A stretch of DNA of 64,000 bases from Nannocystis bainbridge (GTDB taxonomy: Bacteria; Myxococcota_A; Polyangia; Nannocystales; Nannocystaceae), in NCBI RefSeq assembly GCF_028368995.1, contig NZ_JAQNDL010000001.1:864001-928000 (forward strand), in the 5' to 3' direction. The stretch's first letter is position 1. Each line of letters begins with the position of its first letter. A model generated the notes under the pieces. It made no database searches. It was not told where the DNA came from and was given only the letters and a program-made list of their open reading frames with translations. Position numbers and translations under genes: made by a program. This document shows, piece by piece, positions 402 to 63,953 of this stretch.

Positions 402-463
402 AATGCGCGAAGAGACATGCCCATCAGGACATGCCCCTTCGCACATGCCCTCACGGGCATGTC
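402..463. repeat. Array of 14-bp TGYC-N6-GRCA units at a convergent junction
   Basis: CATG junction cores at 416, 430, 444, 458 (AATG at 402); exact 14-bp period. Confidence 0.85.
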
Positions 464-479
464 GTTTCGCGCAGCTCGC

Positions 480-1274
480 TCAGGCCCGCAGCGAAGCGAT
501 CTTGTCGCGCTGGCTGCGGGCGACCTTCAGCGTCGCGCCGCCCTCGAGCACCACCACCGCCTCGCGCCGGCCGCCGCTGCGGAGCTCGCGGATCCGCCGG
601 CGGTTGACGATCGCCGAGCGGTGGATCCGGACGAACTGCGACGGGTCGAGCCGGCGCTCCAGGCTCTGCATCGTCTCGCGGTGCAGGTAGCTCTTGGGCC
701 CGGCGTGGATCTGCACGTAGTAGTCGGCCGCCTCGATCCAGTCGATCTCGTCGGCGCGCAGGAGCACCACCCGGCTGCCGTCCTTGATCGCCAGGCGATC
801 GGCAGGCTGCGCCACCACCGGCACCGGCCCGCGCGGCTCGCCGACATCGGCCAGCAGCGCCGCCAGCCGGCGCCGCAAGCCCTCGAGCTCCGCCCCCTGC
901 AGCTGGGCCTTGGCCCGCCGCAGCACCTCGACGAAGCGCTCGTCGTCGAACGGCTTCAGCAGGTAGTCGAGCCCGTGGACCTCGAGCGCCTGCACCGCGT
1001 AGCGGTCGAACGCGGTCACGAACACCACCCCGGGCACGCTCGCCGGCGGCAGCGAGGCCAGCACCTGGAACCCGGAACATTCCGGCATCTGCACGTCGAG
1101 GACCACCAGGTCGGGCCGCAGCGCCTCGATCCGGCTGGCCGCCTCGCGCCCGGAGGCGACCTCGCCGATGACCTCGATGTCGGCGTCCCGACCGAGCAGC
1201 AAGCGGATGCCCTCGCGGGCCAGGGGTTCGTCGTCGATGATCAGGGTCTTAATTGTAGGGTTACGCTCCAACAT
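480..1274 (-). CDS. LytR/AlgR family response regulator (REC + LytTR)
   Basis: IIDDEPLARE, LVVLDVQMP, FVTAFDRYA, DYLLKPFD; LytTR region IDWIEAADYYV...FVRIHRSAIVN. Start taken at ATG 1274 (MLERNPTIK). Confidence 0.93.
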   Translation of the reverse strand: MLERNPTIKTLIIDDEPLAREGIRLLLGRDADIEVIGEVASGREAASRIEALRPDLVVLDVQMPECSGFQVLASLPPASVPGVVFVTAFDRYAVQALEVHGLDYLLKPFDDERFVEVLRRAKAQLQGAELEGLRRRLAALLADVGEPRGPVPVVAQPADRLAIKDGSRVVLLRADEIDWIEAADYYVQIHAGPKSYLHRETMQSLERRLDPSQFVRIHRSAIVNRRRIRELRSGGRREAVVVLEGGATLKVARSQRDKIASLRA

Positions 1275-1679
1275 ACATCGGCTCCTCGAAGGCTGGGGGG
1301 ATCTGCAGCGACACCGCGGCTCCGCAGCCACGCGCTGCCGTGAGCTCGAATCGATGCTCGGCTGAATAGAGGCGTGAAACTCGGGCGGCCGCGGCGAGAT
1401 GGAGCCACGGTAGCGATCGGCCCGCATGGCAGCCACGCGCGGCCATCCCCCTCGCAGGGGAGCCGTGTGACGGCGCGGCCGAATCGGGGCGATGCTCCAT
1501 GCGCGAGACCTCGGCCCTTACGACCTGACCGCGGCCCGAGTGGTTGCAGCGAAGCGACGTGAAGGCGCAGCGAGCGGCCCGCTAATTTTAAATGAAACCG
1601 CCGCGCATCCGCGCGGGTCCCATCGAATTGGCCGCCATGCCGCGCCCTCGCGCGGGCGCCCTCTCGGCCCCGCGAGCGC

Positions 1680-3188
1680 TCAGCGCTCGGCCAGCACGAA
1701 GGCCATCAGCGCCATCGCGGCCGCGTTGCGCTCGAGGTGGTCCGGATCGATCTTGTCGAAGGTATCCGCCGGGCTGTGGTGCAGGTCGAAGTACGCGCTG
1801 ACGTCCGGGTGGAGCCCGAGGCTCAACACCCCGTCCTTCGTCAGCGGCGAGATGTCGGCCCCGCCTCCGCCCGCCTCGAGCACGCTGGCCCCGAGCCCGT
1901 CGAACAGCGGCGCGAACCGCTGCAGCGCCGCGACCTGCTCCGGCGTGCCGCTGATGCCGAACCCTCGCGGCGCCCCCGAGCCGGTGTCGGCCTCGATCGC
2001 CGCCACGTGCTTCTCCTTGCCGTGGGCCGCGTGGTACGCCTTGGCCCCGCGCAGGCCGTTCTCCTCGTTGGTGAACAGCACCACCCGGATCGTCCGTCGC
2101 GGCACCAGCCCCAGCTCCTTGAGCAGCGCCGCCGCCTCGATCGCCATCATGCAGCCGCCGCCGTCGTCGGTGCTGCCGTCGCCCACGTCCCACGAGTCGA
2201 TGTGCCCGCCGATCACCACGATCTCGTCGGGCAGCTCGCGCCCGCGCAGCTCGGCGATCGCGTTGCCGCTGACGCTGTCGGGCAACGTCTTGGCCCCGAG
2301 CGACAGCTCGACCGTGGTCTTGCCGCGGCGGGCCAGGCGGGCCAGCAGCTCCGCGTCCTCGAGCGTGAGCGCGGCCGCCGGGATCTTCTTGACCCCGTCC
2401 TCGTAGCGCAGCGCCCCGGTGTGCGGGCTCCGCAGGCTGTTGGCGGTGACCGAGCGGACCAGCACCGCCCTGGCCCCGACCTTGGCCGCCTCCGTCGCCC
2501 CGCTGCCGCGGATCCGCACCGTATCGCCGTAGTGCGTCTCGTTGCGCGCGTGGTCGAAGCGCGGCATCGCCTGGTTCACCACCACGATCTTGTCGCGCAG
2601 CTCGGCCCCGCGGGTCACGATCTCGGCCAGCGACTCGACCACCGCGACCTCGCCGCGGACCTTGCCGCCGACCGTCCCGCCGAGCCCGAGGATCACCAGG
2701 TCGCGCTCGATCGGCGCCACCACCCGCGCCCGCTCGGCCCCGCGGACCCAGTGCGGCACCATCACCTTCTCGCGCCGCGGATTGTCGAGCCCGTCGCGCT
2801 TCATCTGCGCGATCGTCCAGTCGATCGCCTTCTCGAGCGAACGCGACCCGCTCAGGCGGTGACCGAACGTGTCCGAAAGGACAGCCAGCAGCTCCCACGC
2901 GCGCGTGCGGCCCAGCGCCGCCGCGGTCAGCCGCTCGGCCGCGTCGACGAACACCGGCGGCAGCTCGTCGACCCGCGGCGTCGTCGCGCTGACCGCCGTC
3001 GCCGACGGCAGCGACGGCTTGTCGCCGCCGAACACCGGCCCCGCGCCCGCGTGCGAGCCCGGCGGCATCCCCCCGACCGGCATCGACTCGCCGCGGATCA
3101 TCGGCGGCGCCGTCTCGCTCGACTTCGGGGCCGGGCAGGCGGACACGGCAGCGGCGAGGAGCAGGCAGGACGCGAGGCGCACCCGCAT
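1680..3188 (-). CDS. M28 family metallopeptidase (carboxypeptidase Q-like) lipoprotein
   Basis: Lipobox AVSAC; GHRLSGS, GGHIDSWD, DDGGG, FTNEENGL, HHSPADTFDK. Confidence 0.9.
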   Translation of the reverse strand: MRVRLASCLLLAAAVSACPAPKSSETAPPMIRGESMPVGGMPPGSHAGAGPVFGGDKPSLPSATAVSATTPRVDELPPVFVDAAERLTAAALGRTRAWELLAVLSDTFGHRLSGSRSLEKAIDWTIAQMKRDGLDNPRREKVMVPHWVRGAERARVVAPIERDLVILGLGGTVGGKVRGEVAVVESLAEIVTRGAELRDKIVVVNQAMPRFDHARNETHYGDTVRIRGSGATEAAKVGARAVLVRSVTANSLRSPHTGALRYEDGVKKIPAAALTLEDAELLARLARRGKTTVELSLGAKTLPDSVSGNAIAELRGRELPDEIVVIGGHIDSWDVGDGSTDDGGGCMMAIEAAALLKELGLVPRRTIRVVLFTNEENGLRGAKAYHAAHGKEKHVAAIEADTGSGAPRGFGISGTPEQVAALQRFAPLFDGLGASVLEAGGGGADISPLTKDGVLSLGLHPDVSAYFDLHHSPADTFDKIDPDHLERNAAAMALMAFVLAER

Positions 3189-3226: not shown

Positions 3227-3258
3227 GCTGTCCCGAGAGCAATGTCTTTTCAGACATC
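3227..3258. repeat. 14-bp unit array overlapping the kinase stop codon
   Basis: Perfect TGTCTTTTCAGACA at 3243-3256, preceded by a degenerate unit at 3229. Confidence 0.65.
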
Positions 3259-5832
3259 TTCCGGCGCATCGGCCCACACGGCCCAGCCGGCGTCCCACGC
3301 GTCGGCTTCGTCACGGAAGGCGCCCGCGAACCGGGCCTCGGCGGCGAAGAACCCGTCGTCCGGCGGCGCGGCCGCGCCGGCGGTCAGCGGGGCCCGCGGC
3401 TTGTAGCGATTGGGGCCGGCCGGGTCGGCGCAGCCAGGGAGATCCGGATCTGCCACACGGGCGCCGGCGCGGGTCAACAGCGCCGCCTCGTCGAGGCCGA
3501 AGTCGTCGTCTGCCAGCGCCAGCTCGCCGCCCGGAACCTCGGCGTGGGCCAGCGGCGCGGCGAAGTTGCGCGCCAGCCACAGCCCGCCGCGCAGGTCGAC
3601 GGCGGTGTCGCGGTCACGCACGTCGAGCGGCGCCTCGAAGCCGACCACCACCGCGTTGCCGACCGTCGCCGCCGTGCCGCGGCGCAGCAACATCCCGTAG
3701 TGCTCGTGCTCGGCTCCGTGGCCGCGGCCGCACAGCGTCGCGTTGAAGATCGTCGGGGCCGAGCGCGGCGTGTTGAGCGACCCGCCGGGGTCGTTGTCGC
3801 CCTCGAGCCCGGCCGTGGTGTCGAGCGCCTCGGCCCCGTCGCGCAGCAGCAGGAACTGCAGCCGGCCGGTGTAGCCGAGGTCCCAGTCGAACCCGTCGTC
3901 GCCCGGGTCCTGGCAGATCAGGTGTTTGGCGTCGACGGTCCCGCCGAAGAACTCGAAGCAATCGTCGGCGGTGTGGCGCACCTGCACGTGATCGACCTGC
4001 GTCCCGCGGCCGACCCCGGCGAACGTGACCCCGTTGATCTCGTTGTTGGGCCCGAGCTCGGTCCCGCTGTACTCGACCCGCACGAACCGCAGCGACCCCG
4101 AGCTGTCCTCCGGGTCCTCTCCGCCGTACTCGCCGCCGTCGGCGATGCCCTCGACCCGCCCGACCGTCGCGCGCCCCTCGGCGTCGCGCAGGTTGGTCGG
4201 CGCCTTGCCGAGGATGATAAGCCCGCCCCAGTCCCCCGCCTTGCGCTCGCCCGGCCGCGCCTCGCTGGTGAACACGATCGGCCGCTCGCGCGTGCCCTCG
4301 GCCACCAGCTTCGCGCCCGGCTGGACCACCAGCGTCCCGCGGGTGTCGCGGTCGCCGACGATCGTCGTCCCCGGATCGATCGTCAGCGTCGCCCCCGGGC
4401 GCACGAACGTCACGAAGCGCAGCCGGTACACCTTGTCGCAGGTCAGCCGGGCCGCGTGCTCGATCTCCCCCGACAGCTCCACCACCGGCTTGTCGGCCCG
4501 CGCGCACGGCTCCACCACGGCTGGCTCTGCGGACATGTCCGAATCGACATGCTCCTCCGGACCTGCCTTGAAGAACATGGCCAAAGAGACAGCCAACGCC
4601 GCCGCCCCGAGCCCGACCGGCAACCAGCGCGGCACCTGCAGCGGCCGCCGCACCACCGGCGCCACCACCGACCAGGTGGCGTCGTGCGGCCCGCTCGGGC
4701 GCGCCGGGCTCGACTCGGCCGGGGCCTCGGCGGCGCGCGGGGCGTCGCGGCGGGTCGGCTCGTCGGGGTGCGCGAGGTCGCCGGGCCCGGGCTCCACGAG
4801 CGTCGCCGGGTCGGACAGGTCGAGTACCGGCAGGTCGTCGTGGGCCTGGCGCGCGCGCCGGATCTGCGCCTCGACCAGCCCGCGCAGGCTGGCCCGATCG
4901 GCGGCGAAGATGTCCCCGAGCGCGCTGCCGATCGCGCGCGGCGACGGGGCGCTCTTGCCGAGGTGCAGCTCGAGCGCCTCGCGGAACAGCTCGGCCGAGG
5001 CCGGGCGCGCCGATGGATCGATCGCCAGCGCCGAGGCCACCAGCGAGCGCAGCGCCGGCGTCGCCGCGGACTCGGCGGGCAGCGGCGGGATGTCGCCCTC
5101 TTCGAGCCGGCGCGCGATCGTCAGCTCGTCGAGCCCGCCCCACAGCCGCTGCTGCGCCAGCGCCTCCCACAGCATCACGCCGACCGAGAACAGGTCGCTG
5201 CGGCGATCGACCTGCTCGCCGCACACCTGCTCCGGCGACGAATAAGCCGCCTTGCCCTTGAACGTCCCGACCTCGGTGTCGCCGTCGCCCGCGAGCCGAG
5301 CGATGCCGAAATCGACCAGCTTGATCTGCCCGTCGTAGGTGACGATCACGTTGTGCGGCGACACGTCGCGGTGCACCAGCCCGAGCGGCCGGCCCTCGTA
5401 GTCGCGCAGCTCGTGGACGTAGTGGAGCCCGGCCAGCAGCTCGGCGAGGATCCGCAGGTGCATCGCCAGCGGCAGCCCGGGCGGCAGCGGCGGCGGCTGG
5501 TGCACGCGGCGGAGGATCCGGTGCAGCGCCTGGCCCTCGAGGTACTCCATGGCGATGAACGGCCGCCCGTCCTCGCTGCCGACCTCGTAGGTCTGGACCA
5601 CGTTGGGGTGCGACAGCAGCGTGGCGATCTTCGCCTCGCGCTGGAACATCGCCCGGTACTCCGGGTCGCGCACCAGCGCCGGCCGCAGGTCCTTGAGCAC
5701 GAGCAGCTTGAGCGCCCCGCCGACCCCGCGCGCGGCCGCGAGGTAGATGTCGGCCATCCCGCCGTGGCCGACGGCCGCGAGCCGACGAAACTTCGGCGCG
5801 TGCGGGCTCCGACTGCGCTCGTCGCTCGGCAT
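3250..5832 (-). CDS. Membrane Ser/Thr protein kinase with C-terminal extracytoplasmic beta-helix-like domain
   Basis: GHGGMA, LVLK, HRDVSPHN, DFG, SPEQ; TM segment WLPVGLGAAALAVSLAMFF; C-terminal TLTIDPGT..PIVFTS..GDWGGLIILG..EINGVTFAGVG..FEFFGG. Confidence 0.92.
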   Translation of the reverse strand: MPSDERSRSPHAPKFRRLAAVGHGGMADIYLAAARGVGGALKLLVLKDLRPALVRDPEYRAMFQREAKIATLLSHPNVVQTYEVGSEDGRPFIAMEYLEGQALHRILRRVHQPPPLPPGLPLAMHLRILAELLAGLHYVHELRDYEGRPLGLVHRDVSPHNVIVTYDGQIKLVDFGIARLAGDGDTEVGTFKGKAAYSSPEQVCGEQVDRRSDLFSVGVMLWEALAQQRLWGGLDELTIARRLEEGDIPPLPAESAATPALRSLVASALAIDPSARPASAELFREALELHLGKSAPSPRAIGSALGDIFAADRASLRGLVEAQIRRARQAHDDLPVLDLSDPATLVEPGPGDLAHPDEPTRRDAPRAAEAPAESSPARPSGPHDATWSVVAPVVRRPLQVPRWLPVGLGAAALAVSLAMFFKAGPEEHVDSDMSAEPAVVEPCARADKPVVELSGEIEHAARLTCDKVYRLRFVTFVRPGATLTIDPGTTIVGDRDTRGTLVVQPGAKLVAEGTRERPIVFTSEARPGERKAGDWGGLIILGKAPTNLRDAEGRATVGRVEGIADGGEYGGEDPEDSSGSLRFVRVEYSGTELGPNNEINGVTFAGVGRGTQVDHVQVRHTADDCFEFFGGTVDAKHLICQDPGDDGFDWDLGYTGRLQFLLLRDGAEALDTTAGLEGDNDPGGSLNTPRSAPTIFNATLCGRGHGAEHEHYGMLLRRGTAATVGNAVVVGFEAPLDVRDRDTAVDLRGGLWLARNFAAPLAHAEVPGGELALADDDFGLDEAALLTRAGARVADPDLPGCADPAGPNRYKPRAPLTAGAAAPPDDGFFAAEARFAGAFRDEADAWDAGWAVWADAPEDV
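4532..4593. repeat. 14-bp unit array inside the kinase CDS
   Basis: Cores at 4534, 4548, 4562, 4576, 4590; perfect unit TGTCCGAATCGACA at 4536. Confidence 0.8.
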
Positions 5833-8110: not shown

Positions 8111-8144
8111 GATGTCGCACGGGACATGTATGATGCGACATGTC
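8111..8144. repeat. 14-bp unit array (intergenic)
   Basis: Cores at 8111, 8125, 8139; perfect unit TGTCGCACGGGACA at 8113. Confidence 0.75.
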
Positions 8145-8323
8145 TCGATTCACGCTCGCTACATCGCCATGAGAGACATCGATGGGCCCGCCGCCCGCCC
8201 TCGTTGCTGCCGACGCGGGGCGATCCATCCCGTGGCCCACTCAAGCATCGTCTGTTCAGACGATCTTACGACCCCCTGAACCTCACAGCCGCGGTCCTCG
8301 CGGACGGGGCGAACGCGGCAATG

Positions 8324-9631
8324 TCACGGTCGCAGCGCCAGCACCTGCTCGAGCTCCATGTGCCGCAGCCGCGCCGCGCGCGGCAGCACCAGCTCGAGCG
8401 GCTCCTCGATCACCCGCCCGCGCCGCGACGATGCGTGGAGCAGCGTGCGCGTCCCCGGTCGTGGCCCGCGGAGCACCACGCCCACGTGGCACGGCGATTC
8501 GCCGGCCCCCCACAGGAACAGCAGATCGCCGGGCTCGCCGAGCGCCCGCGCCGGCGCTGCCGCCAGCGCCAGCTGATCGCTCGAGTGCCGCGGCAGCACC
8601 ACGCCCAGCGCCGCCCGCACCGCCCGCTGCACCAGCCCCGAGCAGTCGATCCCGAGCGACGTGGTCCCGCCCAGCCGATACGGCGTCCCACGGAAGCCCC
8701 GCAGCGCGCGCGTCAACGCGGCCGCCCCAGCGCGCGCCGGTGCGACTGCCAGTGCCGGGGAGGCCACCGGCAGCCCGAGCCGCTTCCGCGTCCAGCCGAT
8801 CGTCCCGTCGCTCGCGCGCACGAGCAACCAACCGCCCACCGCCGCGAGCACCCCGACCGGCCCGTCGCCCGGCAGCAGCTCGGTGCAGAGCTCGATGTCC
8901 TCACGGACATGTCCCTCGGGACACCATGACTCGTGACCGCGCCGCCCCGCTGCGTCCGTCCATTCGCGAGCAGCCGCGGCTCCGCGCCGATCGGGCTCCG
9001 CCCCGGACCACGGCCGCTGAACCTCGAGCAGCCCCTCGGGCGTGAGACCGACCGCCGACCCAATCAAGTCCCTCGCGTCATGATCCGGCGAGCCCCGCCT
9101 CTTCTTCAAGGGAGCAGGCCCAGGGGCGCTCTCTTCGCGCCACGTGCTCGATCGCAGATCTCGAACGACATGTCCCGAAGCGCATGTCTCTCGAGACATG
9201 CAAAACCCCACTCCGACCGGCGCCCGCCACAGCCGCGTCACCCCCGGAGGCAGCGCGAGCCACTCCCGCGGCGCCGCGATCTGCGTCCCCCTCGCATCGA
9301 CGGCCCACCGCGCAGGCAACACCGCGCGCAGCTCGTCCAGCGTCGCCGCCAGCGCCTTCTGACTCAGCGCCTCGCCTTCGACCACCAGCGTCCGCCGCCG
9401 CGCTTCGAACGCGCAGCGCAACCCTGGCCCGGCCCAGCCGAACCGCCGCACCAACCCTCGCCGCCGCTCGGCCAGCGCCCCTGCGATCCGGGCCTCGAGC
9501 ATCGCAAGCGACGCCGACCCCTCGCTCCCGGTGAGTCGCCCCGCCTGCACGACGACCTCCCACGACTCTCGCCCGGCCCACGCCCCGTCCACCGCGGCCG
9601 CCCCCTCGCCGCGCGCCTCAGGCCCCGTCAC
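8324..9631 (-). CDS. NlpC/P60 (C40) cell-wall peptidase with SH3-like region and an apparent in-frame insertion of about 100 aa
   Basis: GTPYRLGG..GIDCSGLV, LPRHS, PGDLLF, HVGV, LLHAS; SH3-like WLLVRASDGTIGW. Overlaps the upstream Mur ligase stop. Confidence 0.85.
   Translation of the reverse strand: MTGPEARGEGAAAVDGAWAGRESWEVVVQAGRLTGSEGSASLAMLEARIAGALAERRRGLVRRFGWAGPGLRCAFEARRRTLVVEGEALSQKALAATLDELRAVLPARWAVDARGTQIAAPREWLALPPGVTRLWRAPVGVGFCMSRETCASGHVVRDLRSSTWREESAPGPAPLKKRRGSPDHDARDLIGSAVGLTPEGLLEVQRPWSGAEPDRRGAAAAREWTDAAGRRGHESWCPEGHVREDIELCTELLPGDGPVGVLAAVGGWLLVRASDGTIGWTRKRLGLPVASPALAVAPARAGAAALTRALRGFRGTPYRLGGTTSLGIDCSGLVQRAVRAALGVVLPRHSSDQLALAAAPARALGEPGDLLFLWGAGESPCHVGVVLRGPRPGTRTLLHASSRRGRVIEEPLELVLPRAARLRHMELEQVLALRP
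8894..8925. repeat. Two abutting perfect TGTC-N6-GACA units inside the NlpC/P60 CDS
   Basis: TGTCCTCACGGACA (8896) directly followed by TGTCCCTCGGGACA (8910). Confidence 0.85.
9167..9200. repeat. 14-bp unit array inside the NlpC/P60 CDS
   Basis: CATG cores at 9169, 9183, 9197; perfect TGTCTCTCGAGACA at 9185. Confidence 0.85.
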
Positions 9632-10859
9632 CGTCGACCTCCAGCCCGAGCAGCCGCTGCACCGTCGCGCGGTCCGAGAACGGCGCTGTATCGTCGCCGA
9701 TCGTCTGTCCCGACTCGTGACCCTTGCCGGCGATCACCACCACGTCACCGGGCGCTGCCAGCTCGATCGCCAGCCCGATCGCCCGCAGGCGATCGGCCTC
9801 CTCGACGATCCGCGCCCGACCGCCGCGCTCCAGCCCCGCTCGCAGGTGCGCCGCGATCTGCCGCGGATCTTCGTGGCGCGGATTGTCGGTCGTCAGCACC
9901 GCGATGTCGGCCGCGGTGCCGACCGCCTCGCCCATCGGCTCGCGCTTGCCGGCGTCGGTGTCACCGCCGGCGCCGAACACCACGATCACCCGCTCCGCGC
10001 CCGCCAGCGCTCGCGCCGTCGCGCACGTCCGTGCCAGCGCGTCGGGCGTGTGCGCGTAGTCCACCACCACCACCGGCGCGCGGCTCATCACCTCGAAGCG
10101 GCCCGGCACCACCGGACACGACGCCAGCCCGGCGCGCACCGCCGCCGCCGGCAACCCGGCCGCCAGCGCCGCGGCCGCGGCCGCCAGCGCGTTCTCGGCG
10201 AACACCTCGCCGACGTACGCCACCTGCAGCGCCCCGCCGAGCGCCTCCGCCAGAGGCGACGGCGCCAGCGTCAGCGCGGTCCCTTCGGCGGATGTCCTCA
10301 CGGACATGGCCTCCAGGTCATGCTCTTTGAGACATGCCCCTCGGGACATGACCCCATACCACACCCGACGCACGTCGGCCGGCGTGACCTGGTCGAGCAG
10401 CAGCGCCGCCGGGTCGCGGGCGTTGAGGATCGCCGCCCCGCCCGGCGAGGTGTGGACGAACAGCTGGGCCTTGCTGGCCAGGTAGTGCTCCCACGAGCCG
10501 TGGCTCTTGAAGTGGTCAGGCGACAGGTTGGTGAACACCGCGTGATCGAACCGCCAGCGCCTGGCGTAGCCGCGGGCCAGCGACTGGCTGGTGATCTCGA
10601 CCACCGCGTGGCGGGCCCCGGCGGCGCGCGACTGCTCGGCCGCGGCGAGGAACCCCGGCCAGCTGCGCTCGACCGCCAGCGGCGTCCCGTCGAGCGAGTA
10701 GTCGAGGGTCGTCGCCGCGAACACGCGCTCGCCAGCCGCGCGCACGATCGCGGCCAGCATCGTCGTCGTCGAGGTCTTGCCGTTCGTGCCGGTCACGCCG
10801 AACGTGCGCATGTCCTCGGCCCAGGGGGCAGCTGCCGGCACCGGCCTCGGATCGCTCAC
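9618..10859 (-). CDS. murE: MurE-like Mur ligase (UDP-MurNAc-tripeptide synthetase), lacking the usual N-terminal domain
   Basis: GVTGTNGKTST P-loop, FTNLSPDH, VPGRFE, DYAHTPDA, VFGAGGD, DNPR, IAGKGHE. Confidence 0.85.
   Translation of the reverse strand: MSDPRPVPAAAPWAEDMRTFGVTGTNGKTSTTTMLAAIVRAAGERVFAATTLDYSLDGTPLAVERSWPGFLAAAEQSRAAGARHAVVEITSQSLARGYARRWRFDHAVFTNLSPDHFKSHGSWEHYLASKAQLFVHTSPGGAAILNARDPAALLLDQVTPADVRRVWYGVMSRGACLKEHDLEAMSVRTSAEGTALTLAPSPLAEALGGALQVAYVGEVFAENALAAAAAALAAGLPAAAVRAGLASCPVVPGRFEVMSRAPVVVVDYAHTPDALARTCATARALAGAERVIVVFGAGGDTDAGKREPMGEAVGTAADIAVLTTDNPRHEDPRQIAAHLRAGLERGGRARIVEEADRLRAIGLAIELAAPGDVVVIAGKGHESGQTIGDDTAPFSDRATVQRLLGLEVDGDGA
10291..10350. repeat. 14-bp unit array inside the MurE-like CDS
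   Basis: Cores at 10291, 10305, 10319, 10333, 10347. Confidence 0.85.
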
Positions 10860-14141: not shown

Positions 14142-14215
14142 CATGTCTCTCGGCACATGCCCTCAACAACATGTCCTCGCAGACATGCCCCTGAAGGCAT
14201 GTCCCGGCGACCATG
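14142..14215. repeat. 14-bp unit array at a convergent junction
   Basis: CATG at 14142, 14156, 14170, 14184, 14198, 14212. Confidence 0.9.
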
Positions 14216-18614: not shown

Positions 18615-20171
18615 TCATCCGGCGTAGGCCTCGTCCTGCTCGATCTTGCTGAGCACCCAGTCGAACTCGCCGCGCGTCAGGTGAGCGCCGCAGTACTCGC
18701 ACGCGCCGGCCATGGAGACGCGGTCGAGCGGCGCCCCGCAGTTGGGGCAGTTCGCGTCCGCGGCCGGCTTGCCGCGGACCTTCGCCCCGCGGATCAGCGT
18801 CCAGTACTCGCTGTACGTGCGCGGGTACTTGGCGCTGCCCGACACGTGATCCCCGTTCATGCGCGCCGTGTAGTCGAGGCCGCGGGCCCACACGCGCACC
18901 GTCAGCGCGTCGTACCAGCGGTCGCGCTCGAGCTTGACGATCACCAGCCGCAGCACCTGCGTGCCCGCGAGCACGTTGCGCAGGCCCTGGGCCCGGTAGG
19001 CGTCGATCCAGTACTGCAGGTAGTTGAACAGCGAGTCGGACACGAACGGCCGCACGCGGCGGAGGTCGAGCGCGGTCCAGCCGGCGTTGAGCTCGGCGTG
19101 GATCGTGCGCACGCGCTGGTCGATGCGCTCGGGCGAGGTCGACGGGTCCTCGGCGATCAGGGCCGCGTGGGCCTGCTGGATGCCGGGCATGAACAGCGTG
19201 CGGTCATCGGTGCCGACCTCCTCCGCGTGGTGCGTCAGCGGCGGCGGGCGCGACTCGAGCCTGAGCACGCGCACGTGATGGACCGACCAGTCGAACCGCC
19301 CGCCCTCGACCTGCTGGCCGCAGAAGCGGCACGCGCCGCTGTCGCTGCGCTCGAACGGCGCCCCGCAGTTGGGGCAGCCGAGCGCCGTCACCGTCTCCGG
19401 CGTGCGGCTCCTGGCGTCGGCGCGCCGCTGCAGCCGCCACGCCTCGCGCACGTAGAACCCGCGCTCGCCGTCGGGCAGCGCGGCGCTGTAGTTGGCCTCG
19501 AACGCGACCTCGACCTCGATCATCCCGTCGGGCGTCGCCGGCAGCTGGACCTTCTCGACCTGCATCGAGCCGATCACGACCCCGCGGATCGGCGCCCCGG
19601 TCGGCTCGCGCTTCATCAGCGTCCTGCGGGTCTCGGGCCCGACGTAGGGCGCCAGCGCCTCCATCGCCCGCGCGTCGCCGCGGGCCCCCTGGGCGCGGGC
19701 GTACAGCGCGTAGACGAAGTCGGCGAACAGCACCGGCGAGAAGTCCGGATCGAGGCGACGGATCGCCGCCAGGTCGCCGCGGCGACCCGCGTGGGTCGCC
19801 GTCGTCGGCGCGCTGTCCCACGTCTCCTCGGCCTGACGCTTCCGATCGCTGCGGTAGTGGAAGTAGACGACCACGCCGACGATGACCAGCAGCGGCACCC
19901 CGAGCTGCGGCACCTCGAACACCAGCCGCACCAGCAAGTAGAGGATCACCCCGCCGTCGCCGCCGCCGCTGCTGCCCCCGCTGAAGCCGCCGCCGCCGCT
20001 GCTGCCCCCGCCGGAGTAGCCGTGGCCGCCGCCCGGGCGCGCCGCCGCCTCGGCCGCCAGCGCCAACAGCACCGCCGCCGCCGCGATCGCCAGGCCCCTG
20101 GACCATGTCCGCCAGGACATGCCCTTCGCGCCATGCCCCCGAGAGCATGTCCCTTGCGACATGTCCTTCAT
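18615..20171 (-). CDS. TIM44-like domain membrane protein with zinc-ribbon motifs
   Basis: ARPGGGHGYSGG glycine tract, DPDFS, two NTF2/Tim44-like domains (YSEYWTL), CPNCGAP...CxFC/CEYC twice. ATG 20171 overlaps the upstream TGA. Confidence 0.85.
   Translation of the reverse strand: MKDMSQGTCSRGHGAKGMSWRTWSRGLAIAAAAVLLALAAEAAARPGGGHGYSGGGSSGGGGFSGGSSGGGDGGVILYLLVRLVFEVPQLGVPLLVIVGVVVYFHYRSDRKRQAEETWDSAPTTATHAGRRGDLAAIRRLDPDFSPVLFADFVYALYARAQGARGDARAMEALAPYVGPETRRTLMKREPTGAPIRGVVIGSMQVEKVQLPATPDGMIEVEVAFEANYSAALPDGERGFYVREAWRLQRRADARSRTPETVTALGCPNCGAPFERSDSGACRFCGQQVEGGRFDWSVHHVRVLRLESRPPPLTHHAEEVGTDDRTLFMPGIQQAHAALIAEDPSTSPERIDQRVRTIHAELNAGWTALDLRRVRPFVSDSLFNYLQYWIDAYRAQGLRNVLAGTQVLRLVIVKLERDRWYDALTVRVWARGLDYTARMNGDHVSGSAKYPRTYSEYWTLIRGAKVRGKPAADANCPNCGAPLDRVSMAGACEYCGAHLTRGEFDWVLSKIEQDEAYAG
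20104..20165. repeat. 14-bp unit array at the 5' end of the TIM44-like CDS
   Basis: CATG at 20104, 20118, 20132, 20146, 20160; perfect units at 20106 and 20148. Confidence 0.9.
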
Positions 20172-24154: not shown

Positions 24155-24230
24155 CCTGTCCCCGAGGACATGCCCCACGAGGCATGCGCTCCCGGACAGG
24201 TCTCCAGGGACATGCCCCTTCGGGCATGTC
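24155..24230. repeat. 14-bp unit array at a convergent junction
   Basis: Cores at 24155, 24169, 24183, 24197, 24211, 24225. Confidence 0.9.
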
Positions 24231-24243
24231 CCGAAAGCGACTC

Positions 24244-27756: not shown

Positions 27757-27900
27757 CCTGGCGCAAGGGACATTTCTCTTCAAACATGTCCTTAAGAACA
27801 TTCTCGAAGGAGCATGTTCAAACGGACATCTAATTTCGCCCGATCGGCGACACCCATGTCCTCCGGGACACCTCGTCGTCGGGCTCTGCTCGCAGCCATG
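27757..27900. repeat. Longest 14-bp unit array in the window (AT-richer, intergenic)
   Basis: Cores at 27757, 27771, 27785, 27799, 27813, 27827, 27855, 27869, 27897, all in one 14-bp phase. Confidence 0.88.
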
Positions 27901-30544: not shown

Positions 30545-30613
30545 ACCTTCGGACATGCCCGATCGGCCATGCCCTGCGGGACATGGCCCCGGGAACATGC
30601 CCCGAGGGCCACC
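30538..30613. repeat. 14-bp unit array at a convergent junction (overlaps the stop codon)
   Basis: CATG at 30540, 30554, 30568, 30582, 30596; CACC at 30610. Confidence 0.9.
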
Positions 30614-47158: not shown

Positions 47159-47251
47159 GACATGTCCCCCGGGACATGTCGACTCATTGCATGGACATGT
47201 CCTCGAGGACATGTCCTTTTGGCGCGCGAATAAACCGTCCCGAAGGACAGG
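47159..47251. repeat. 14-bp unit arrays at a convergent junction
   Basis: Perfect units at 47163 and 47198; cores at 47161/47175, 47196/47210, 47234/47248. Confidence 0.88.
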
Positions 47252-51857: not shown

Positions 51858-51873
51858 CGGCCCGCCGCATGGG

Positions 51874-51946
51874 CATGTCCGAAGGGACATGCCCATCAGA
51901 AATGTTCAAAGGGACATGCTCCTTCGAGCATGTCCCTTCGCGCAGG
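51874..51946. repeat. 14-bp unit array at a convergent junction
   Basis: Cores at 51874, 51888, 51901, 51915, 51929, 51943 (one 13-bp step). Confidence 0.88.
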
Positions 51947-51959
51947 TCCGGCCGGCCGC

Positions 51960-58444: not shown

Positions 58445-58490
58445 TATGTCCATGAGGACATGTCGCTAAAAACATGTCGAAAAAGACAGA
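58445..58490. repeat. 14-bp unit array
   Basis: Cores at 58445, 58459, 58473, 58487; perfect units at 58447 and 58475. Confidence 0.85.
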
Positions 58491-60237: not shown

Positions 60238-61041
60238 ATGCGGAAAGCCCGGCGATGCGGCGCGCTCGTGTTGGCAGGCCTCCTCGCCCTGCCGGCGCCG
60301 GCGCGCGCGGCCGACCTGCGGCCCGTCGAAGCCCCGGTCGAGGTCCCGGTGCCGGAGCGGCCCGACGCGCAGCCTGGCGCGAAGGACAGGCCCCTGAGCG
60401 CGGTGCCGGTGCCGGATCAACCTGTCTCTTCGGACATGTCTCCGAGCACAGGTCCCGAAGCACAGGTCCCCGAGGCCAGGGTCGAAGGGCCAGCTCCGCC
60501 GCCGCCGCCGTCGCTGGCCCCCGGGGCCGGGCTCGGCGAGCCCGAAGACGCGATCACCGTGGCGGTCGGGCTCGGCCCGACAGCGCCGGGGACGAAGCCC
60601 GAGGTCGCCCTGGTCGACGCGCTGGAGCGCGCCGTGCGGTCGTCCGCGGCCCCCAGGACCACGGTCCGCCGGCTGCGCGCCGGGGTCGGCGAAGGCAAGC
60701 TCGTGTGCCGCGAGCGCCGCGACGATCTGGTGATCCTCGTCGAGTACCTCGCCGATCGCCCCGACCCGGTGCTGCTGCCGCACGACTGCCGGCTCGACCG
60801 CGCCCTGGGCGTGCGCGGGGCCGACGCCGCCAATCACCCGGAGCTGGTGGCGACGCTGTGGGGCGAGCACGAGGCGCTGGTCCGCGACGGGGCGAAGGAG
60901 CGGCGGCGGACCCGGTTGGGTCCGAAGGTGAGGACGGGTCTCATCGCCGGCGGGGCGATCCTGGCCGTCGGCCTGGCGATCGGTCTCGTGGTCGCGGCCA
61001 GCTTGCGCCGTGAGATCGTCGTGCTCACAGTCAGTCCATGA
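60238..61041 (+). CDS. Secreted/membrane-anchored hypothetical protein
   Basis: Signal peptide ..ARA|AD, Pro-rich linker, C-terminal TM segment; stop overlaps the next ATG. Confidence 0.7.
   Translation: MRKARRCGALVLAGLLALPAPARAADLRPVEAPVEVPVPERPDAQPGAKDRPLSAVPVPDQPVSSDMSPSTGPEAQVPEARVEGPAPPPPPSLAPGAGLGEPEDAITVAVGLGPTAPGTKPEVALVDALERAVRSSAAPRTTVRRLRAGVGEGKLVCRERRDDLVILVEYLADRPDPVLLPHDCRLDRALGVRGADAANHPELVATLWGEHEALVRDGAKERRRTRLGPKVRTGLIAGGAILAVGLAIGLVVAASLRREIVVLTVSP
60421..60494. repeat. 14-bp unit array inside a CDS linker
   Basis: Cores at 60421, 60435, 60449, 60463, 60477, 60491; perfect unit at 60423. Confidence 0.85.
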
Positions 61042-62006: not shown

Positions 62007-62021
62007 TCGTCACCTGTCGCA

Positions 62022-62039
62022 CCTGTCGCAGAGGACAGG
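62022..62039. repeat. Perfect TGTC-N6-GACA unit upstream of rsmD
   Basis: TGTCGCAGAGGACA at 62024. Confidence 0.7.
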
Positions 62040-62089: not shown

Positions 62090-62704
62090 GTGCAGCGGAT
62101 CAGCGGAGGGAGCCTGCGCGGGCGGGTGTTGAAGTCGCTGCCGACTGTGCCCGGCTTGCGCCCGACCGGCGCGCGCGTGCGTGAGGCGATCTTCGACCGC
62201 CTGCAGCACGAATTGCGCGACGCAGTGGTGCTCGACCTGTTCGCCGGCTCGGGCGCGCTCGCCTTCGAGGCGCTGTCTCGCGGCGCCGCGCGGGCCACCC
62301 TCGTCGAGCGCAATCCTGCGGTCGCGCGCCACCTGCAGGCTCAGATCCGTGAGCTTGCGCTCGACGAGCGCGCGCGGCTGTGGCAAGGCGACGCGACGAC
62401 GTTCTTGCGCCGACATTCGCCGAGCGCGGCCGAGCTCGCGGGTCCTTACGACCTCGTGTTCGTCGACCCGCCGTACGACGACACCGAGGTCGTGCTCGCG
62501 GCGGTGCTGCCCGCGCTGGTCGCCGGTGGTTGGCTGGCTGAAAGCGCCGCGCTTGTATGCGAATATGACCGCGCTGGAGGCCGCAGGCCGCCCGCATGGC
62601 CGCAGGGGCTGGTCGTCGAGACGACCCGGCACTACGGCCAGACGGCGGTCGAGTTCCTCCGTCATACTAAGACGACGACCACGGGGGCCCCACAGCTGTG
62701 CTAA
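62090..62704 (+). CDS. rsmD: 16S rRNA (guanine966-N2)-methyltransferase RsmD
   Basis: RISGGSLRGR, RPT..RVREAIF, LDLFAGSGALAFEALSRGA, DLVFVDPPY, RHYGQT. Confidence 0.93.
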   Translation: MQRISGGSLRGRVLKSLPTVPGLRPTGARVREAIFDRLQHELRDAVVLDLFAGSGALAFEALSRGAARATLVERNPAVARHLQAQIRELALDERARLWQGDATTFLRRHSPSAAELAGPYDLVFVDPPYDDTEVVLAAVLPALVAGGWLAESAALVCEYDRAGGRRPPAWPQGLVVETTRHYGQTAVEFLRHTKTTTTGAPQLC

Positions 62705-63924
62705 GGCGCGAACTTGAGACCAATGCACGAGCCCAGGTGCTGAGCGAGTCGCCGACGTTGGCGATGTCGGCCCGCGCCAAGGAGCTCAAGGCCCAGGGCA
62801 AAGAGGTCCTCGACTTCAGCGCCGGTGAGCCCGACTTCCACCCGCCTGCCGGCGTCACCACGGCCGTCATCGAGTACCTGCGTACGCACCCGGTGCACTA
62901 CGCCCCGGTGCCTGGCCTGCCCGCCCTGCGCGACGCCGCAGCGGCCGAGTTCGCGCGCTACCACGGCCGCGACGTCGCCCGCAACGAGATCTTGGTGTCG
63001 TGCGGCGCCAAGCACAGCCTCGCCAACCTGTTCATGATCACGCTGTCGCCCGGCGACGAGGTCGTGATCCCCGCGCCGTACTGGGTCTCGTACGCCGACA
63101 TGGTGCGCCTCGGCGACGGCGTGCCGGTGATCGTGCCCACCAGCCGCGACGACGGCTGGCGCCTGCAGCCCGAGGCGCTCGCGGCGGCGCTGACCCCGAA
63201 GACGCGCTTCATCGTGCTCGGCAACCCGACCAACCCGACCGGCGCCGGCTACCCCGCGCCGCTGCTGCGGGCCCTCGGCGAGGTCATGGCGCGGGTCGCT
63301 CCGCGCTGCTGGTTGCTCGTCGACGACATCTACCGCCGCCTCGTGTACGGCGGCTTCGAGCACGTCAGCGCGGTCCGGACCCTCGCCGACGTCACCGAGC
63401 AGATCGTCCTCGTCGACGGCGTGTCCAAGAGCTACTCGATGACGGGCTACCGGATCGGCTTCATGCTGGCCCCGAGCAAGGTGGTGTCCGCGGCCTCGCG
63501 CCTGCAAGGCCACGTCACCTCCGGCGCGGCCACGGTGTCGCAGATCGCCGCCCTCGCCGCGATCACCGACCCGAGCTGCGAGGCCGCCGTGCAGGAGATG
63601 CACGCCGCCTTCACCCGCCGCCGCGAGTTCATGCTCGCCGGCCTCAAGGCCCTGCCCGGCCTCGACATCGTCGCCCCCGACGGCGCCTTCTACCTGTTCT
63701 GCGACGTCTCGCGCCACCTCGGCCCCGGCACCGCGTTCGCCGACGACATTGCCTTTGCGACATGGCTCTTGGAGCAGAAGCTGGTCGCCACCGTGCCGGG
63801 CACCGCGTTCGGCGCTCCGGGCCACCTGCGCGTGTCGTACGCCGCCGCCGAGCGGACCCTGCGCGACGGCCTGGAGCGGTTCGGCCAGGCCTTCGCCGAT
63901 CTTCCGCCGCCGCGCGCCGGCTGA
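62698..63924 (+). CDS. PLP-dependent class I aminotransferase (aspartate aminotransferase-like)
   Basis: SPTLAM, AGEPDF, GAK, PAPYWVSY, NPTNPTG, DDIY, SKSYSMTGYRIG, PDGAFY, PGTAFG, LRVSYA. Confidence 0.93.
   Translation: MLRRELETNARAQVLSESPTLAMSARAKELKAQGKEVLDFSAGEPDFHPPAGVTTAVIEYLRTHPVHYAPVPGLPALRDAAAAEFARYHGRDVARNEILVSCGAKHSLANLFMITLSPGDEVVIPAPYWVSYADMVRLGDGVPVIVPTSRDDGWRLQPEALAAALTPKTRFIVLGNPTNPTGAGYPAPLLRALGEVMARVAPRCWLLVDDIYRRLVYGGFEHVSAVRTLADVTEQIVLVDGVSKSYSMTGYRIGFMLAPSKVVSAASRLQGHVTSGAATVSQIAALAAITDPSCEAAVQEMHAAFTRRREFMLAGLKALPGLDIVAPDGAFYLFCDVSRHLGPGTAFADDIAFATWLLEQKLVATVPGTAFGAPGHLRVSYAAAERTLRDGLERFGQAFADLPPPRAG
63747..63778. repeat. Degenerate 14-bp unit array inside the aminotransferase CDS
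   Basis: Cores at 63747, 63761, 63775, coinciding with rare AT-ending codons (ATT, TTT, ACA). Confidence 0.5.
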
Positions 63925-63935
63925 CCGGCGCACTG

Positions 63936-63953
63936 CCTGTCTCTCGGGGCAGG
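63936..63953. repeat. Near-perfect 14-bp unit after the aminotransferase stop
   Basis: CCTGTCTCTCGGGGCAGG; another unit starts at 63989 and runs off the window. Confidence 0.6.

What the first reader, a model, noticed from the sequence alone, without database searches (positions are those of the whole stretch)
402..63953. Dispersed 14-bp palindrome TGTC-N6-GACA forming head-to-tail arrays: candidate undescribed chromosome-wide binding-site system
Seen: I counted 33 perfect TGTC-N6-GACA sites by eye, at 2870, 3243, 4536, 8113, 8896, 8910, 9185, 10293, 14172, 20106, 20148, 24157, 25659, 26551, 27857, 29740, 31483, 38642, 39012, 39111, 42062, 44123, 45030, 45231, 47163, 47198, 51876, 56389, 58447, 58475, 59253, 60423 and 62024. 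A rough zero-order estimate at about 72% GC expects fewer than one in 64 kb. Degenerate units abut with no gap, so CATG junctions recur every 14 bp in arrays of up to about 9 cores. Left-end cores tend to keep only the TG(TC) half (CCTG, GATG, GCTG) and right-end cores only the (GA)CA half (CAGG, CAGC, CATC), which defines the unit as TGTC-N6-GACA rather than GACATGTC. The N6 spacers differ from unit to unit, so this is not recent slippage. Inference: cooperative sites for an abundant dimeric DNA-binding protein (nucleoid organiser, topoisomerase or SMC loader, or global regulator). Three units make 42 bp, about four helical turns, so adjacent dimers would spiral around the DNA. I do not recognise it as parS, matS, a CRP/FNR box or a classical REP.
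Basis: partly seen in the sequence, partly recalled or inferred. Interest (0 to 1): 0.9.

Follow-up and report, generated by a model that had tools for sequence, protein, structure and literature searches.

The report
Phased 14-bp dyad arrays in Nannocystis
A short DNA palindrome, repeated thousands of times and often stacked head-to-tail just after genes, is kept intact across a whole genus of soil myxobacteria in a way that suggests an unknown protein reads it on the DNA.

Summary
All 33 TGTC-N6-GACA sites are at the stated coordinates, against 0.76 expected from shuffles. The 11-Mb genome holds 3663 such sites, against 29-155 at other spacings. CATG self-distances peak at 14, 28 and 42 bp.

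The unit is TGYCC-N4-GGRCA. It forms about 5300 sites or arrays in exact 14-bp register.
- **Location:** 55% of convergent intergenic regions carry a unit, against 15% of divergent ones. 804 of 1987 perfect units lie inside genes, in codon-compatible phases.
- **Distribution:** it was found in 10 of 10 other genomes of the genus (Nannocystis by named relatives), and only as single hits in 6 of 300 other Myxococcota.
- **Conservation:** at orthologous positions in related species the arms and CATG are conserved (0.93-0.95). The 4-nt centres are not (0.36-0.61).
- **No pairing signal:** mirrored arm positions show no base-pair covariation. No RAYT transposase was found in 11 of 11 genomes. Rfam and the paper searches gave no match.

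Best reading (0.45): double-stranded DNA sites for an unidentified dimeric protein that binds side by side on arrays. Binding was not shown. Rivals are REP-like RNA hairpins, a DUS-like drive and selfish repeats.

The parts
404..473 (.). 5-unit array in a convergent intergenic region (271-479)
   Evidence: array caller; gene calls
2870..2883 (.). single perfect unit inside a peptidase M28 gene (1680-3188, minus strand), identical in 4 related species
4522..4591 (.). 5-unit array inside a Ser/Thr kinase gene (3250-5832, minus strand), downstream of the kinase domain; conserved in 4 relatives
8113..8154 (.). 3-unit array in a tandem intergenic region
8896..8923 (.). two abutting perfect units in a tandem intergenic region (8852-9617); the orthologous regions hold 6-8 units
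10293..10348 (.). 4-5-unit array inside a MurE-like coding sequence (variable loop of the Mur ligase middle domain); conserved in 4 relatives
14144..14213 (.). 5-unit array next to the 3' end of the minus-strand gene in convergent region 13961-14224; a canonical-looking terminator hairpin for the plus-strand gene lies in the same region
20092..20175 (.). 6-unit array between two minus-strand genes, just downstream of the stop of 20168-20788; arms conserved and loops variable in 5 species
24157..24240 (.). 6-unit array filling convergent region 24153-24243
27759..27870 (.). cluster of 5 units (3+1+1) in tandem region 27756-28090
29740..29753 (.). single unit in the linker between the aminotransferase and metallo-beta-lactamase domains of gene 28091-30544; conserved in 4 relatives
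30528..30611 (.). array filling the 72-bp convergent region 30545-30616 from stop to stop; same length (72-73 bp) and register in 5 species, with arms and CATG conserved and loops randomised
39012..39138 (.). two 2-unit arrays inside the C-terminal linker of a Ser/Thr kinase gene (38676-40916, minus strand); conserved islands in a variable, indel-rich stretch
45030..45043 (.). single unit that is a perfectly conserved island in a hypervariable part of gene 44155-45231 (minus strand)
47163..47249 (.). 5 units in convergent region 47153-47254; the orthologous region is 126-545 bp long in relatives and holds 3-11 units, partly as higher-order repeats of about 50 bp
51862..51958 (.). 3+4 units filling convergent region 51858-51959; G000 has about one unit more than 4 relatives
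58447..58488 (.). 3-unit array with AT-rich centres, in a region whose genes have no orthologue in the 4 relatives
60423..60492 (.). 5-unit array with CAGG-type junctions, inside the called ORF 60268-61041
62010..62037 (.). unit 14 nt after a stop codon in a tandem region; present in all 5 species, with a 9-bp duplication in G000

Best explanation
The 14-bp dyad TGYCC-N4-GGRCA (extended form C[A/C]TGYCC-N4-GGRCA[T/G]G) is a cis-element specific to the genus Nannocystis. I propose that an as yet unidentified dimeric protein reads it as double-stranded DNA, one half-site per subunit, with the 4-bp centre not contacted. Units abut in exact 14-bp register and share the CATG. Arrays of 2-7 units would therefore hold neighbouring dimers side by side, each rotated about 120 degrees from the last (14 bp at about 10.5 bp per turn). 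The sites are kept wherever the genome tolerates them. Single dyads sit in codon-compatible phases inside genes. Arrays sit in non-promoter intergenic DNA, just after stop codons and above all between convergent genes. The preferred full size is 5-6 units (70-84 bp). The likely role is chromosome-level, such as nucleoid organisation or a topological or insulating function at the ends of transcription units, not gene-specific regulation. What is shown: enrichment, strict spacing, genus restriction, orthologous conservation of arms but not centres, lack of pairing covariation, and conserved intragenic copies. What is inferred: protein binding, dimer geometry, cooperativity and the biological role.
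For: Geometry is strict. Spacing 6 gives 3663 sites against 29-155 at other spacings. GGACA/TGTCC abut 956 times against at most 19 at other offsets.

Half-sites vary independently. In 6320 units, Watson-Crick pairs at mirrored positions equal the expectation under independence (2728 vs 2722, 3920 vs 3914, 3734 vs 3755; mutual information at most 0.01 bit). The same holds for the CATG-centred view. RNAalifold on five species gave a covariation term of +1.52.

Central positions 7-8 are AT-enriched and variable.

Units are mirror-symmetric with respect to the direction of transcription.

Unit presence or absence per intergenic region is conserved across 5 species. For intergenic units the identity is 0.93-0.95 at TG/CA, 0.68-0.84 for the rest of the arms and 0.36-0.61 at the centre (44 comparisons; an earlier, smaller set is). 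Non-consensus arm positions are often retained: 49 of 94.

Intragenic units are conserved islands. In coding sequence, arms score 0.84-0.99 and flanks 0.66-0.96. 804 of 1987 perfect units lie in called genes, evenly spread along them, with codon phases 456/283/65.

There is no master copy: no near-identical arrays with flanks exist outside duplicated contig ends. Array flanks have no conserved termini. Density is about 48 loci per 100 kb on every contig.
Against: No binding protein was identified and nothing was tested at the bench.

The 3'-end and convergent bias is what RNA 3'-end elements or REPs show.

Arrays fold very stably as RNA on both strands (z from -3.3 to -7.3).

There are weak signals in the direction of pairing. 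The flank pair (-1,+14) covaries (odds ratio about 2.2 in isolated units). Sense-strand G.U-type changes exceed C.A-type changes 894 to 743. 6 of 6 double substitutions in orthologues keep the pair, with 2.9 doubles expected, and those comparisons are not independent.

In arrays, each arm can pair with several partners, which would itself suppress covariation.

A 14-bp step is not a multiple of the helical repeat, and no known protein family was tied to this geometry here.

Gene positions come from my own codon-bias caller.
Confidence: 0.45

Rival explanations
1. REP-like RNA (or single-stranded DNA) hairpin arrays. Each unit, or a junction-loop-junction stretch, folds into a stem-loop in the 3' untranslated region of either strand. 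These stem-loops would act as U-tract-less bidirectional terminators or as blocks to 3' exonucleases.
For: The median distance to the flanking 3' end is 27 bp, against 180 bp to a 5' end. 42% of convergent regions carry an array of at least 2 units, against 8% of divergent regions. 55% against 15% carry at least one strong unit. Arrays often fill the whole convergent region: 37% of 419 arrays occupy at least 70% of it. RNA folds have z-scores of -3.3 to -7.3 on both strands, with stems of 10-11 bp. There is a weak wobble asymmetry of 1.2-fold. 6 of 6 double changes are compensatory. The flank pair covaries. TTCG/CGAA is the commonest centre in oriented units.
Against: There is no covariation in 6320 units or in five-species alignments. 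One-sided, pair-breaking differences (54) far outnumber compensatory ones (6), and mismatches are retained. 25% of units have C at position 3 with no depletion of C.A combinations. 40% of perfect units lie inside genes and are conserved there, which is hard to reconcile with terminators. rRNA operons end in a canonical hairpin plus T-run and have no array. Canonical terminators occur independently of units (odds ratio 1.1-1.2, not significant, crude scan). Array flanks show no T-run. Loop length is fixed at exactly 4 nt and inter-unit spacing at exactly 0.
Confidence: 0.25
2. A motif maintained by molecular drive, like DUS/USS. A protein of DNA uptake, recombination or short-patch repair prefers the dyad. 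The motif then accumulates in resident DNA wherever it is tolerated, without any local function.
For: The motif is genus-specific. There are about 5300 loci with a median gap of 1148 bp. Most are intergenic, just after stop codons, yet many sit in permissive, phase-biased coding positions. Density falls in low-GC 100-kb bins, which are probably acquired DNA (r = 0.54). No master copy or transposase was found. Neisseria DUS show comparable features: inverted pairs in terminators, a majority intergenic, permissive regions of genes, and spacing of about 1.1-1.5 kb (passages of PMC2397512).
Against: The half-site alone is not enriched: 12351 TGTCC against roughly 10000 expected from composition (my arithmetic). 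Uptake does not require phased arrays with a preferred size of 5-6 units in convergent regions. No evidence on competence or uptake specificity in Nannocystis was obtained.
Confidence: 0.15
3. A selfish mobile repeat (REPIN/MITE-like) that spreads by transposition or slippage and survives only where insertion is harmless.
For: There are thousands of dispersed copies, enriched between convergent genes. Gains and losses of about one unit occur between species. One region has expanded into higher-order repeats of about 50 bp in two relatives. Adjacent centres are identical slightly more often than random pairs (2.5% vs 1.5%).
Against: No Y1/RAYT transposase was found in 11 of 11 genus genomes, and the control genomes were positive. 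Arrays have no conserved termini or flanks. Among 838 arrays of at least 4 units, no near-identical copies exist apart from duplicated contig ends and overlaps. Centres differ between units even when arms are perfect. Occupancy of orthologous regions is conserved across 5 species, with arms under constraint. Other transposase families were not searched.
Confidence: 0.1

Closest known systems
REP / BIME / REPIN elements with RAYT transposases (Enterobacteria, Pseudomonas)
   Same: Both are short palindromic units present in hundreds to thousands of copies. Both are lineage-specific, clustered and enriched in extragenic DNA at gene 3' ends. E. coli BIME-2 is also a protein (gyrase) target (passages of PMC6379681; REP definition in PMC3116915).
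   Different: The unit here is 14 bp, not about 20-60 bp. Units abut head-to-tail in strict phase, whereas REPINs are inverted doublets with a spacer. Centres are variable. Compensatory changes are not common, though they are in REPINs. 40% of perfect units are genic, against 14 of 1067 in SBW25. No RAYT was found in 11 of 11 genomes.
DNA uptake sequences (Neisseria DUS, Pasteurellaceae USS)
   Same: Both are genus-specific short motifs at roughly one per 1-2 kb. Both are mostly intergenic after stop codons, often as inverted pairs, and also occur in permissive coding positions. Neither has a master copy or a transposase (passages of PMC2397512).
   Different: A DUS is a non-palindromic 10-12-mer that works and occurs singly. 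Here only the dyad is enriched, and it forms phased arrays. Uptake was not tested.
HIP1-type highly iterated palindromes of cyanobacteria (recalled, no call)
   Same: A hyper-abundant, lineage-specific palindrome found in both coding and non-coding DNA, with unknown function.
   Different: HIP1 is a contiguous 8-bp palindrome without arrays or a 3'-end bias (recalled).
Tandem abutting operator boxes bound cooperatively by small dimers, such as MetJ metboxes, omega heptads and ParR iterons (recalled, no call)
   Same: Short dyad units repeated without gaps, with one dimer per unit and cooperative binding along the array. This is the working model proposed here.
   Different: Those occur at a handful of loci per replicon and control specific promoters or centromeres. 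Here there are about 5300 loci, and they are depleted at promoters.
CATG-centred 24-bp palindrome arrays of Solirubrobacterales
   Same: Dispersed arrays of abutting palindromes with recurring CATG, and no known transposase.
   Different: In those notes the two arms of each palindrome change together, which points to a hairpin constraint. Here no covariation is seen in either the hairpin-centred or the CATG-centred view. The unit is 14 bp with conserved arms.

Membership tests
REP/REPIN-RAYT | Imperfect palindromic unit of about 20-60 bp (PMC3116915 introduction) | tested here: not met
   The unit is 14 bp, or 18 bp with the shared flanks.
REP/REPIN-RAYT | Essentially extragenic placement | tested here: not met
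   804 of 1987 perfect units lie in called genes. Only arrays of 5-6 units are mostly extragenic, with 6-14% fully in coding sequence.
REP/REPIN-RAYT | Inverted doublets with a spacer forming a hairpin, with compensatory changes common | tested here: not met
   Units abut head-to-tail. There is no covariation. Between orthologues there are 54 pair-breaking differences against 6 compensatory ones.
REP/REPIN-RAYT | A RAYT (Y1 transposase, PF01797) gene in the genome, flanked by the repeats | tested here: not met
   0 matches in the window's own genome and 0 of 11 genus genomes. 6 of the 14 control genomes matched. Genome completeness was 64-91%.
REP/REPIN-RAYT | Hundreds or more of lineage-specific copies | tested here: met
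   About 5315 loci. 10 of 10 other genus genomes hold the motif, with only single hits elsewhere.
Intrinsic (Rho-independent) terminator | GC-rich hairpin followed by a T/U run | tested here: not met
   The consensus flanking 5- and 6-unit arrays is G/C with no T run. Canonical terminators exist elsewhere, for example after 5S rRNA.
DNA uptake sequence (DUS/USS) | Abundant genus-specific motif, in intergenic terminator-like pairs and in permissive coding positions | tested here: met
   compared with passages of PMC2397512.
DNA uptake sequence (DUS/USS) | A single copy of the motif is the functional, enriched entity | tested here: not met
   The half-site TGTCC is near its composition expectation. 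Only the dyad at N4 is enriched.
DNA uptake sequence (DUS/USS) | The motif enhances DNA uptake or transformation | not testable with these tools
   This needs uptake assays.
Any Rfam RNA family | Match at the gathering score | tested here: not met
   0 matches in the 64-kb window on both strands.
Operator array of a dimeric DNA-binding protein | Dyad-symmetric half-sites at fixed spacing that degenerate independently, with a variable non-contacted centre | tested here: met
Operator array of a dimeric DNA-binding protein | A protein that binds in a sequence- and spacing-specific way | not testable with these tools
   No candidate protein was identified. This needs pull-down, EMSA or DAP-seq.

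The most novel reading that the evidence does not exclude
Nannocystis has a previously unknown chromosome-wide protein-DNA system. A genus-specific dimeric protein would polymerise on phased 14-bp dyad arrays of 70-84 bp at the ends of more than half of convergent transcription units, and would bind single dyads inside genes. This would form thousands of helical nucleoprotein plugs that insulate, roadblock or topologically separate neighbouring transcription units. It would be a protein-based counterpart to what REP/BIME elements and intrinsic terminators do elsewhere.
Probability: 0.3. Interest if true: 0.85.

Novelty: new variant of a known kind. Interest (0 to 1): 0.62.

Why it matters
Dispersed short palindromes such as REP, BIME, DUS and HIP1 are among the least understood features of bacterial genomes. 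This family is unusually clean. There are thousands of copies and one strict geometry. It is restricted to one cultivable genus. Occupancy at orthologous positions is conserved, which separates constrained positions (arms and CATG) from free ones (centres).

It also shows constraint on sequence without constraint on pairing. That argues for a reader of double-stranded DNA and gives a direct handle (array probes) for fishing out the protein. If the protein exists, it would define a new way of marking the ends of transcription units, or of organising a large (11-13 Mb) myxobacterial chromosome.

On the practical side, the motif is a sharp genus marker. It is also a source of annotation artefacts, because its CATG supplies spurious ATG starts on both strands and arrays contain no fixed stop codon.

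Tried and rejected
- **RNA evidence:** no RNA holder was listed for window 46000-49000.
- **Classical REP/RAYT:** rejected, because PF01797 is absent in 11 of 11 genomes.
- **Recently copied larger element:** rejected, because all-against-all BLAST of 838 arrays of at least 4 units with 60-bp flanks gave only duplicated contig ends and overlapping extractions as long hits.
- **CATG-centred covarying palindromes** (a lead from earlier scan notes): tested and not found.
- **Gyrase as the direct reader:** not supported. The E. coli gyrase motif is a degenerate 130-bp pattern with 10.75-bp periodic flanks (passages of PMC6379681), not a 14-bp repeat, and rRNA operon ends carry no arrays. It remains only an analogy through BIME-2.
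- **CATG restriction avoidance or enrichment:** CATG is unremarkable overall (observed/expected 1.24).
- **Analogous motif in a sister genus:** none among the top dyads in 200 kb of G011. Only 41 kb of G013 could be read.
- **Viral contigs:** no exact double unit.
- **Literature:** searches found no description. GGACATGTCC returns p53 response-element papers only (listing seen). Supplements were not consulted.
- **Candidate binding-protein genes next to promoter-side arrays:** 38 arrays in divergent regions were listed but not annotated, because the expected yield was low.


Full report
**Observation.** All 33 perfect TGTC-N6-GACA sites are at the coordinates given. 100 dinucleotide-preserving shuffles of the window gave a mean of 0.76 and a maximum of 3. 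The window is G000:C1:864001-928000 of an 11.05-Mb, 5-contig, 71-72% GC genome. Genome-wide there are 3663 sites at spacing 6, against 29-155 at every other spacing from 0 to 14. GACATGTC occurs 2237 times. Perfect TGTCC-N4-GGACA occurs 1987 times, against 9, 16, 28 and 83 for four scrambled palindromes of the same composition. CATG self-distances peak at 14 bp (3736 pairs), 28 (2073), 42 (1586) and 56 (751), against a median of 129 per distance.

**Anatomy.** I called arrays from a seed unit matching at least 9 of 10 arm positions, extended in 14-bp steps while at least 6 of 10 matched. This gives 5315 loci. Their sizes are 2585, 1292, 600, 205, 292, 218 and 78 for 1 to 7 units, then 30, 10 and 2 for 8 to 10 units, and 3 arrays of 12 units.
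- The consensus is TGYCC-N4-GGRCA. Position 3 is T 59% and C 25%; position 12 is A 61% and G 22%. The centre is variable and AT-enriched at positions 7-8. There are 854 distinct N6 among the 3663 sites.
- The basic unit is the dyad, not the junction. 1695 TGTCC half-sites have only the N4 partner, 591 have only the abutting partner and 1376 have both.
- Arrays of 5 and 6 units have weaker outer half-arms and featureless GC-rich flanks. They have no conserved termini and no T-run.
- The window holds 44 sites or arrays with 105 units. The longest have 6 units.

**Location.** Gene positions come from my own codon-bias ORF caller (8134 genes, 84.5% coding), so they are approximate.
- Arrays of at least 2 units occur in 42.3% of convergent, 15.3% of tandem and 8.3% of divergent intergenic regions (2.62, 0.92 and 0.27 per kb). 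The median distance is 27 bp to a flanking 3' end and 180 bp to a 5' end. Single units were left out of this count.
- At least one strong unit is present in 54.7% of convergent regions, against 1.3% for a control palindrome. The figures are 36.5% for long tandem regions and 15.3% for divergent regions.
- The 5-6-unit mode belongs mainly to convergent regions: 155 and 141 arrays, against 62 with 4 units. Of 419 convergent arrays of at least 4 units, 37% occupy at least 70% of their region.
- 804 of 1987 perfect units nevertheless lie inside called genes. They are spread evenly along the genes, in codon phases 456, 283 and 65. In the window these include a 4-5-unit array inside the Mur ligase middle domain of a MurE-like gene, at a variable loop, and arrays in the linkers of Ser/Thr kinase genes.
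- Loci occur on all contigs at about 48 per 100 kb, with a median gap of 1148 bp. They are rarer in low-GC 100-kb bins (r = 0.54).

**Distribution.** The window's closest named relatives are Nannocystis species.
- The two-unit test pattern occurs 1-120 times per strand in 10 of 10 other genomes of the genus. It occurs once in 1 of 8 other genera of the family, and not at all in 12 other families of the class.
- Among 300 further Myxococcota genomes (209 genera counted with G000), 6 have a single hit and none is enriched.
- In 200 kb of a sister genus, no analogous dyad stood out.
- No viral contig holds the double unit.

**Conservation.** I fetched syntenic regions from four related species at about 90% protein identity.
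- Unit occupancy per intergenic region is conserved: regions empty in G000 are empty in the relatives, and occupied regions are occupied with similar unit numbers.
- The clearest case is convergent region 30545-30616. It is 72-73 bp in all five species, filled from stop to stop by five units in the same register, with arms and CATG conserved and the 4-nt centres randomised.
- In a 204-kb comparison with three relatives there were 146 seed units. 89 had an orthologous region, giving 227 comparisons. 88 were dropped for indels within 12 bp, leaving 139.
- For intergenic units (44 comparisons) identity is 0.93, 0.95, 0.68, 0.77, 0.80 for the left arm, 0.43, 0.41, 0.61, 0.36 for the centre, and 0.82, 0.84, 0.77, 0.95, 0.93 for the right arm.
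- For genic units (90 comparisons) arms score 0.84-0.99 and flanks 0.66-0.96. An earlier, smaller set gave the same profile, with fourfold-degenerate sites at 0.83.
- Units at 45030 and at 39012/39111 are conserved islands in hypervariable, indel-rich coding stretches.
- Because units were chosen for matching the consensus in G000, arm conservation is if anything underestimated.
- Arrays also change. Gains and losses of about one unit occur, and one region has expanded to about 540 bp with higher-order repeats of about 50 bp in two relatives.

**Structure or sequence?**
- In 6320 units from arrays of at least 3 units, Watson-Crick pairs at mirrored arm positions equal the expectation under independence (2728 vs 2722; 3920 vs 3914; 3734 vs 3755). 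Mutual information is at most 0.01 bit.
- The CATG-centred view, a lead from earlier notes of this scan on other genomes, shows the same absence, with observed/expected of 0.94-1.04.
- RNAalifold on the five-species alignment gives a covariation term of +1.52, with 1 of 28 pairs compensatory.
- Between orthologues, of 601 pairs that are Watson-Crick in G000, 523 are unchanged. 72 differ on one side (54 give a mismatch and 18 give G.T). 6 differ on both sides, and all 6 still pair, against 2.9 doubles expected. Of 94 non-paired positions, 49 are retained identically. These comparisons share ancestry and are not independent.
- Oriented by transcription in tandem regions, units are mirror-symmetric: TTCG 67 against CGAA 58. 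G.U-type variants exceed C.A-type variants only 1.2-fold, 894 against 743, using units within 100 bp of a stop only.
- The one clear covariation is at the outer flank pair (-1,+14), with an odds ratio of about 2.2 in 925 isolated units.
- As RNA, arrays would fold strongly on both strands, with z from -3.3 to -7.3. A structural role is therefore physically possible. But constraint acts on sequence and register, and only weakly if at all on pairing.

**Relation to terminators and mobile elements.**
- The three 5S rRNA genes are followed by a canonical GC hairpin plus T-run, with no array.
- A crude scan finds canonical terminators after 11-14% of genes, whether or not units are present (odds ratios 1.22 and 1.13, not significant).
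- No Y1/RAYT transposase domain was found in the window's own genome or in any of the 11 genus genomes, and control genomes were positive. Completeness was 64-91%.
- All-against-all BLAST of 838 arrays of at least 4 units with flanks shows no near-identical copies, apart from duplicated contig ends and overlapping extractions.
- Adjacent centres are identical in 2.5% of cases against 1.5% for random pairs, so slippage contributes a little.
- Rfam has no match in the window.

**Interpretation.** The best-supported reading (0.45) is a double-stranded DNA site for an unidentified dimeric protein, with arrays as platforms for side-by-side binding. It is kept by selection wherever coding and promoter constraints allow. 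Four features fit this reading better than a hairpin reading: the strict N4 and zero-gap geometry, independent half-site degeneracy, a free AT-rich centre, and conserved intragenic copies. The rotation of about 120 degrees per unit, the cooperativity and the biological role are inferences.

The rivals are as follows:
- **REP-like RNA hairpins or terminators (0.25).** Favoured by the 3'-end bias and folding energy. Disfavoured by the lack of covariation and by the genic copies.
- **A DUS-like drive (0.15).** Neisseria DUS share many distribution features (passages of PMC2397512). Here, however, only the dyad is enriched, and phased arrays are unexplained.
- **A selfish REPIN/MITE-like repeat (0.10).**

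**Known systems.**
- REP/REPIN elements are the closest named kind. In passages of PMC3116915 they are defined as about 20-60 bp, extragenic, forming inverted doublets with compensatory changes, and linked to RAYT genes. Four of these features were tested here and not met.
- E. coli BIME-2 being a gyrase target (passages of PMC6379681) is a precedent for protein-read repeats at gene ends. The gyrase motif itself, 130 bp with 10.75-bp periodic flanks, does not resemble a 14-bp repeat.
- HIP1 and the MetJ/omega/ParR operator arrays are comparisons from memory only.
- No paper describing this family was found with the searches. Only listings and abstracts were seen for those, and supplements were closed.
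- This scan previously noted CATG-bearing palindrome arrays on other DNA (Solirubrobacterales). Those are described as hairpin-constrained, unlike this family.

**Verdict.** This is a real, strongly non-random, genus-wide and evolutionarily constrained repeat system. By the searches made, it is undescribed. I file it as a new variant of the dispersed-palindrome kind, with a substantial chance (about 0.3) that it marks a new protein-DNA system. Interest is 0.62.

Noticed in passing
window 9618-10859 (minus strand) and 10939-11067: The MurE-like ORF starts at about residue 99 of solved MurE structures, so the N-terminal domain is not in this frame. A 56-bp tandem repeat (2.3 copies, 97% matches) lies just upstream, where that domain would be encoded.
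   Followed up: no
window 47153-47254; L003 and L004: The orthologous convergent region is 102 bp here but about 540 bp in G010 and G007. There it consists of higher-order repeats of about 50 bp, each carrying one TGTCC-CGAA/CGAG-GGACA unit.
   Followed up: partly
window 53574-57892 and 6204-7733: Six called genes have no tblastn match in the syntenic regions of the four relatives: five at 53574-57892, and 6204-7733, which carries DUF7305. They look like strain-specific insertions, yet they are flanked by units at 56375, 58447 and 8113.
   Followed up: no
G000:C1:2062846, C1:4462953, C5:64878: All three 5S rRNA genes are followed by the same canonical hairpin plus T-run terminator, so classical intrinsic terminators exist in this organism.
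   Followed up: yes
whole genome (G000): CTAG is strongly under-represented (observed/expected 0.20). AATT (3.09) and TATA (2.19) are over-represented relative to a second-order expectation.
   Followed up: no
window 35344-35578: A 49-bp tandem repeat (2.6 copies) and a 26-bp tandem repeat (2.1-2.5 copies) lie in the intergenic region 35312-35648. They are unrelated to the 14-bp unit. This region is 337 bp here and about 195 bp in the relatives.
   Followed up: no
G000 contig ends (C2:841, C5:711218 and 716591; C1:4516425-4533719, C2:3023406-3030940): Array-bearing stretches that are 100% identical recur at or near contig ends, some in inverted orientation. These are probably large duplicated regions that broke the assembly.
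   Followed up: no
G000 C1:1.1-1.3 Mb and other low-GC 100-kb bins: Array density drops to 9-17 per 100 kb, against a mean of 48, in bins with GC of 0.686-0.71. This suggests depletion in atypical, possibly acquired DNA.
   Followed up: partly
window-wide ORF lists: Arrays contain CATG every 14 bp and no fixed stop codon, so they supply ATG starts on both strands and let spurious ORFs run through them. Examples are the ORFs starting at 14200, 20148, 24227, 47212, 51896 and 56403 on the minus strand. This is a likely source of start-codon mis-annotation in these genomes.
   Followed up: partly
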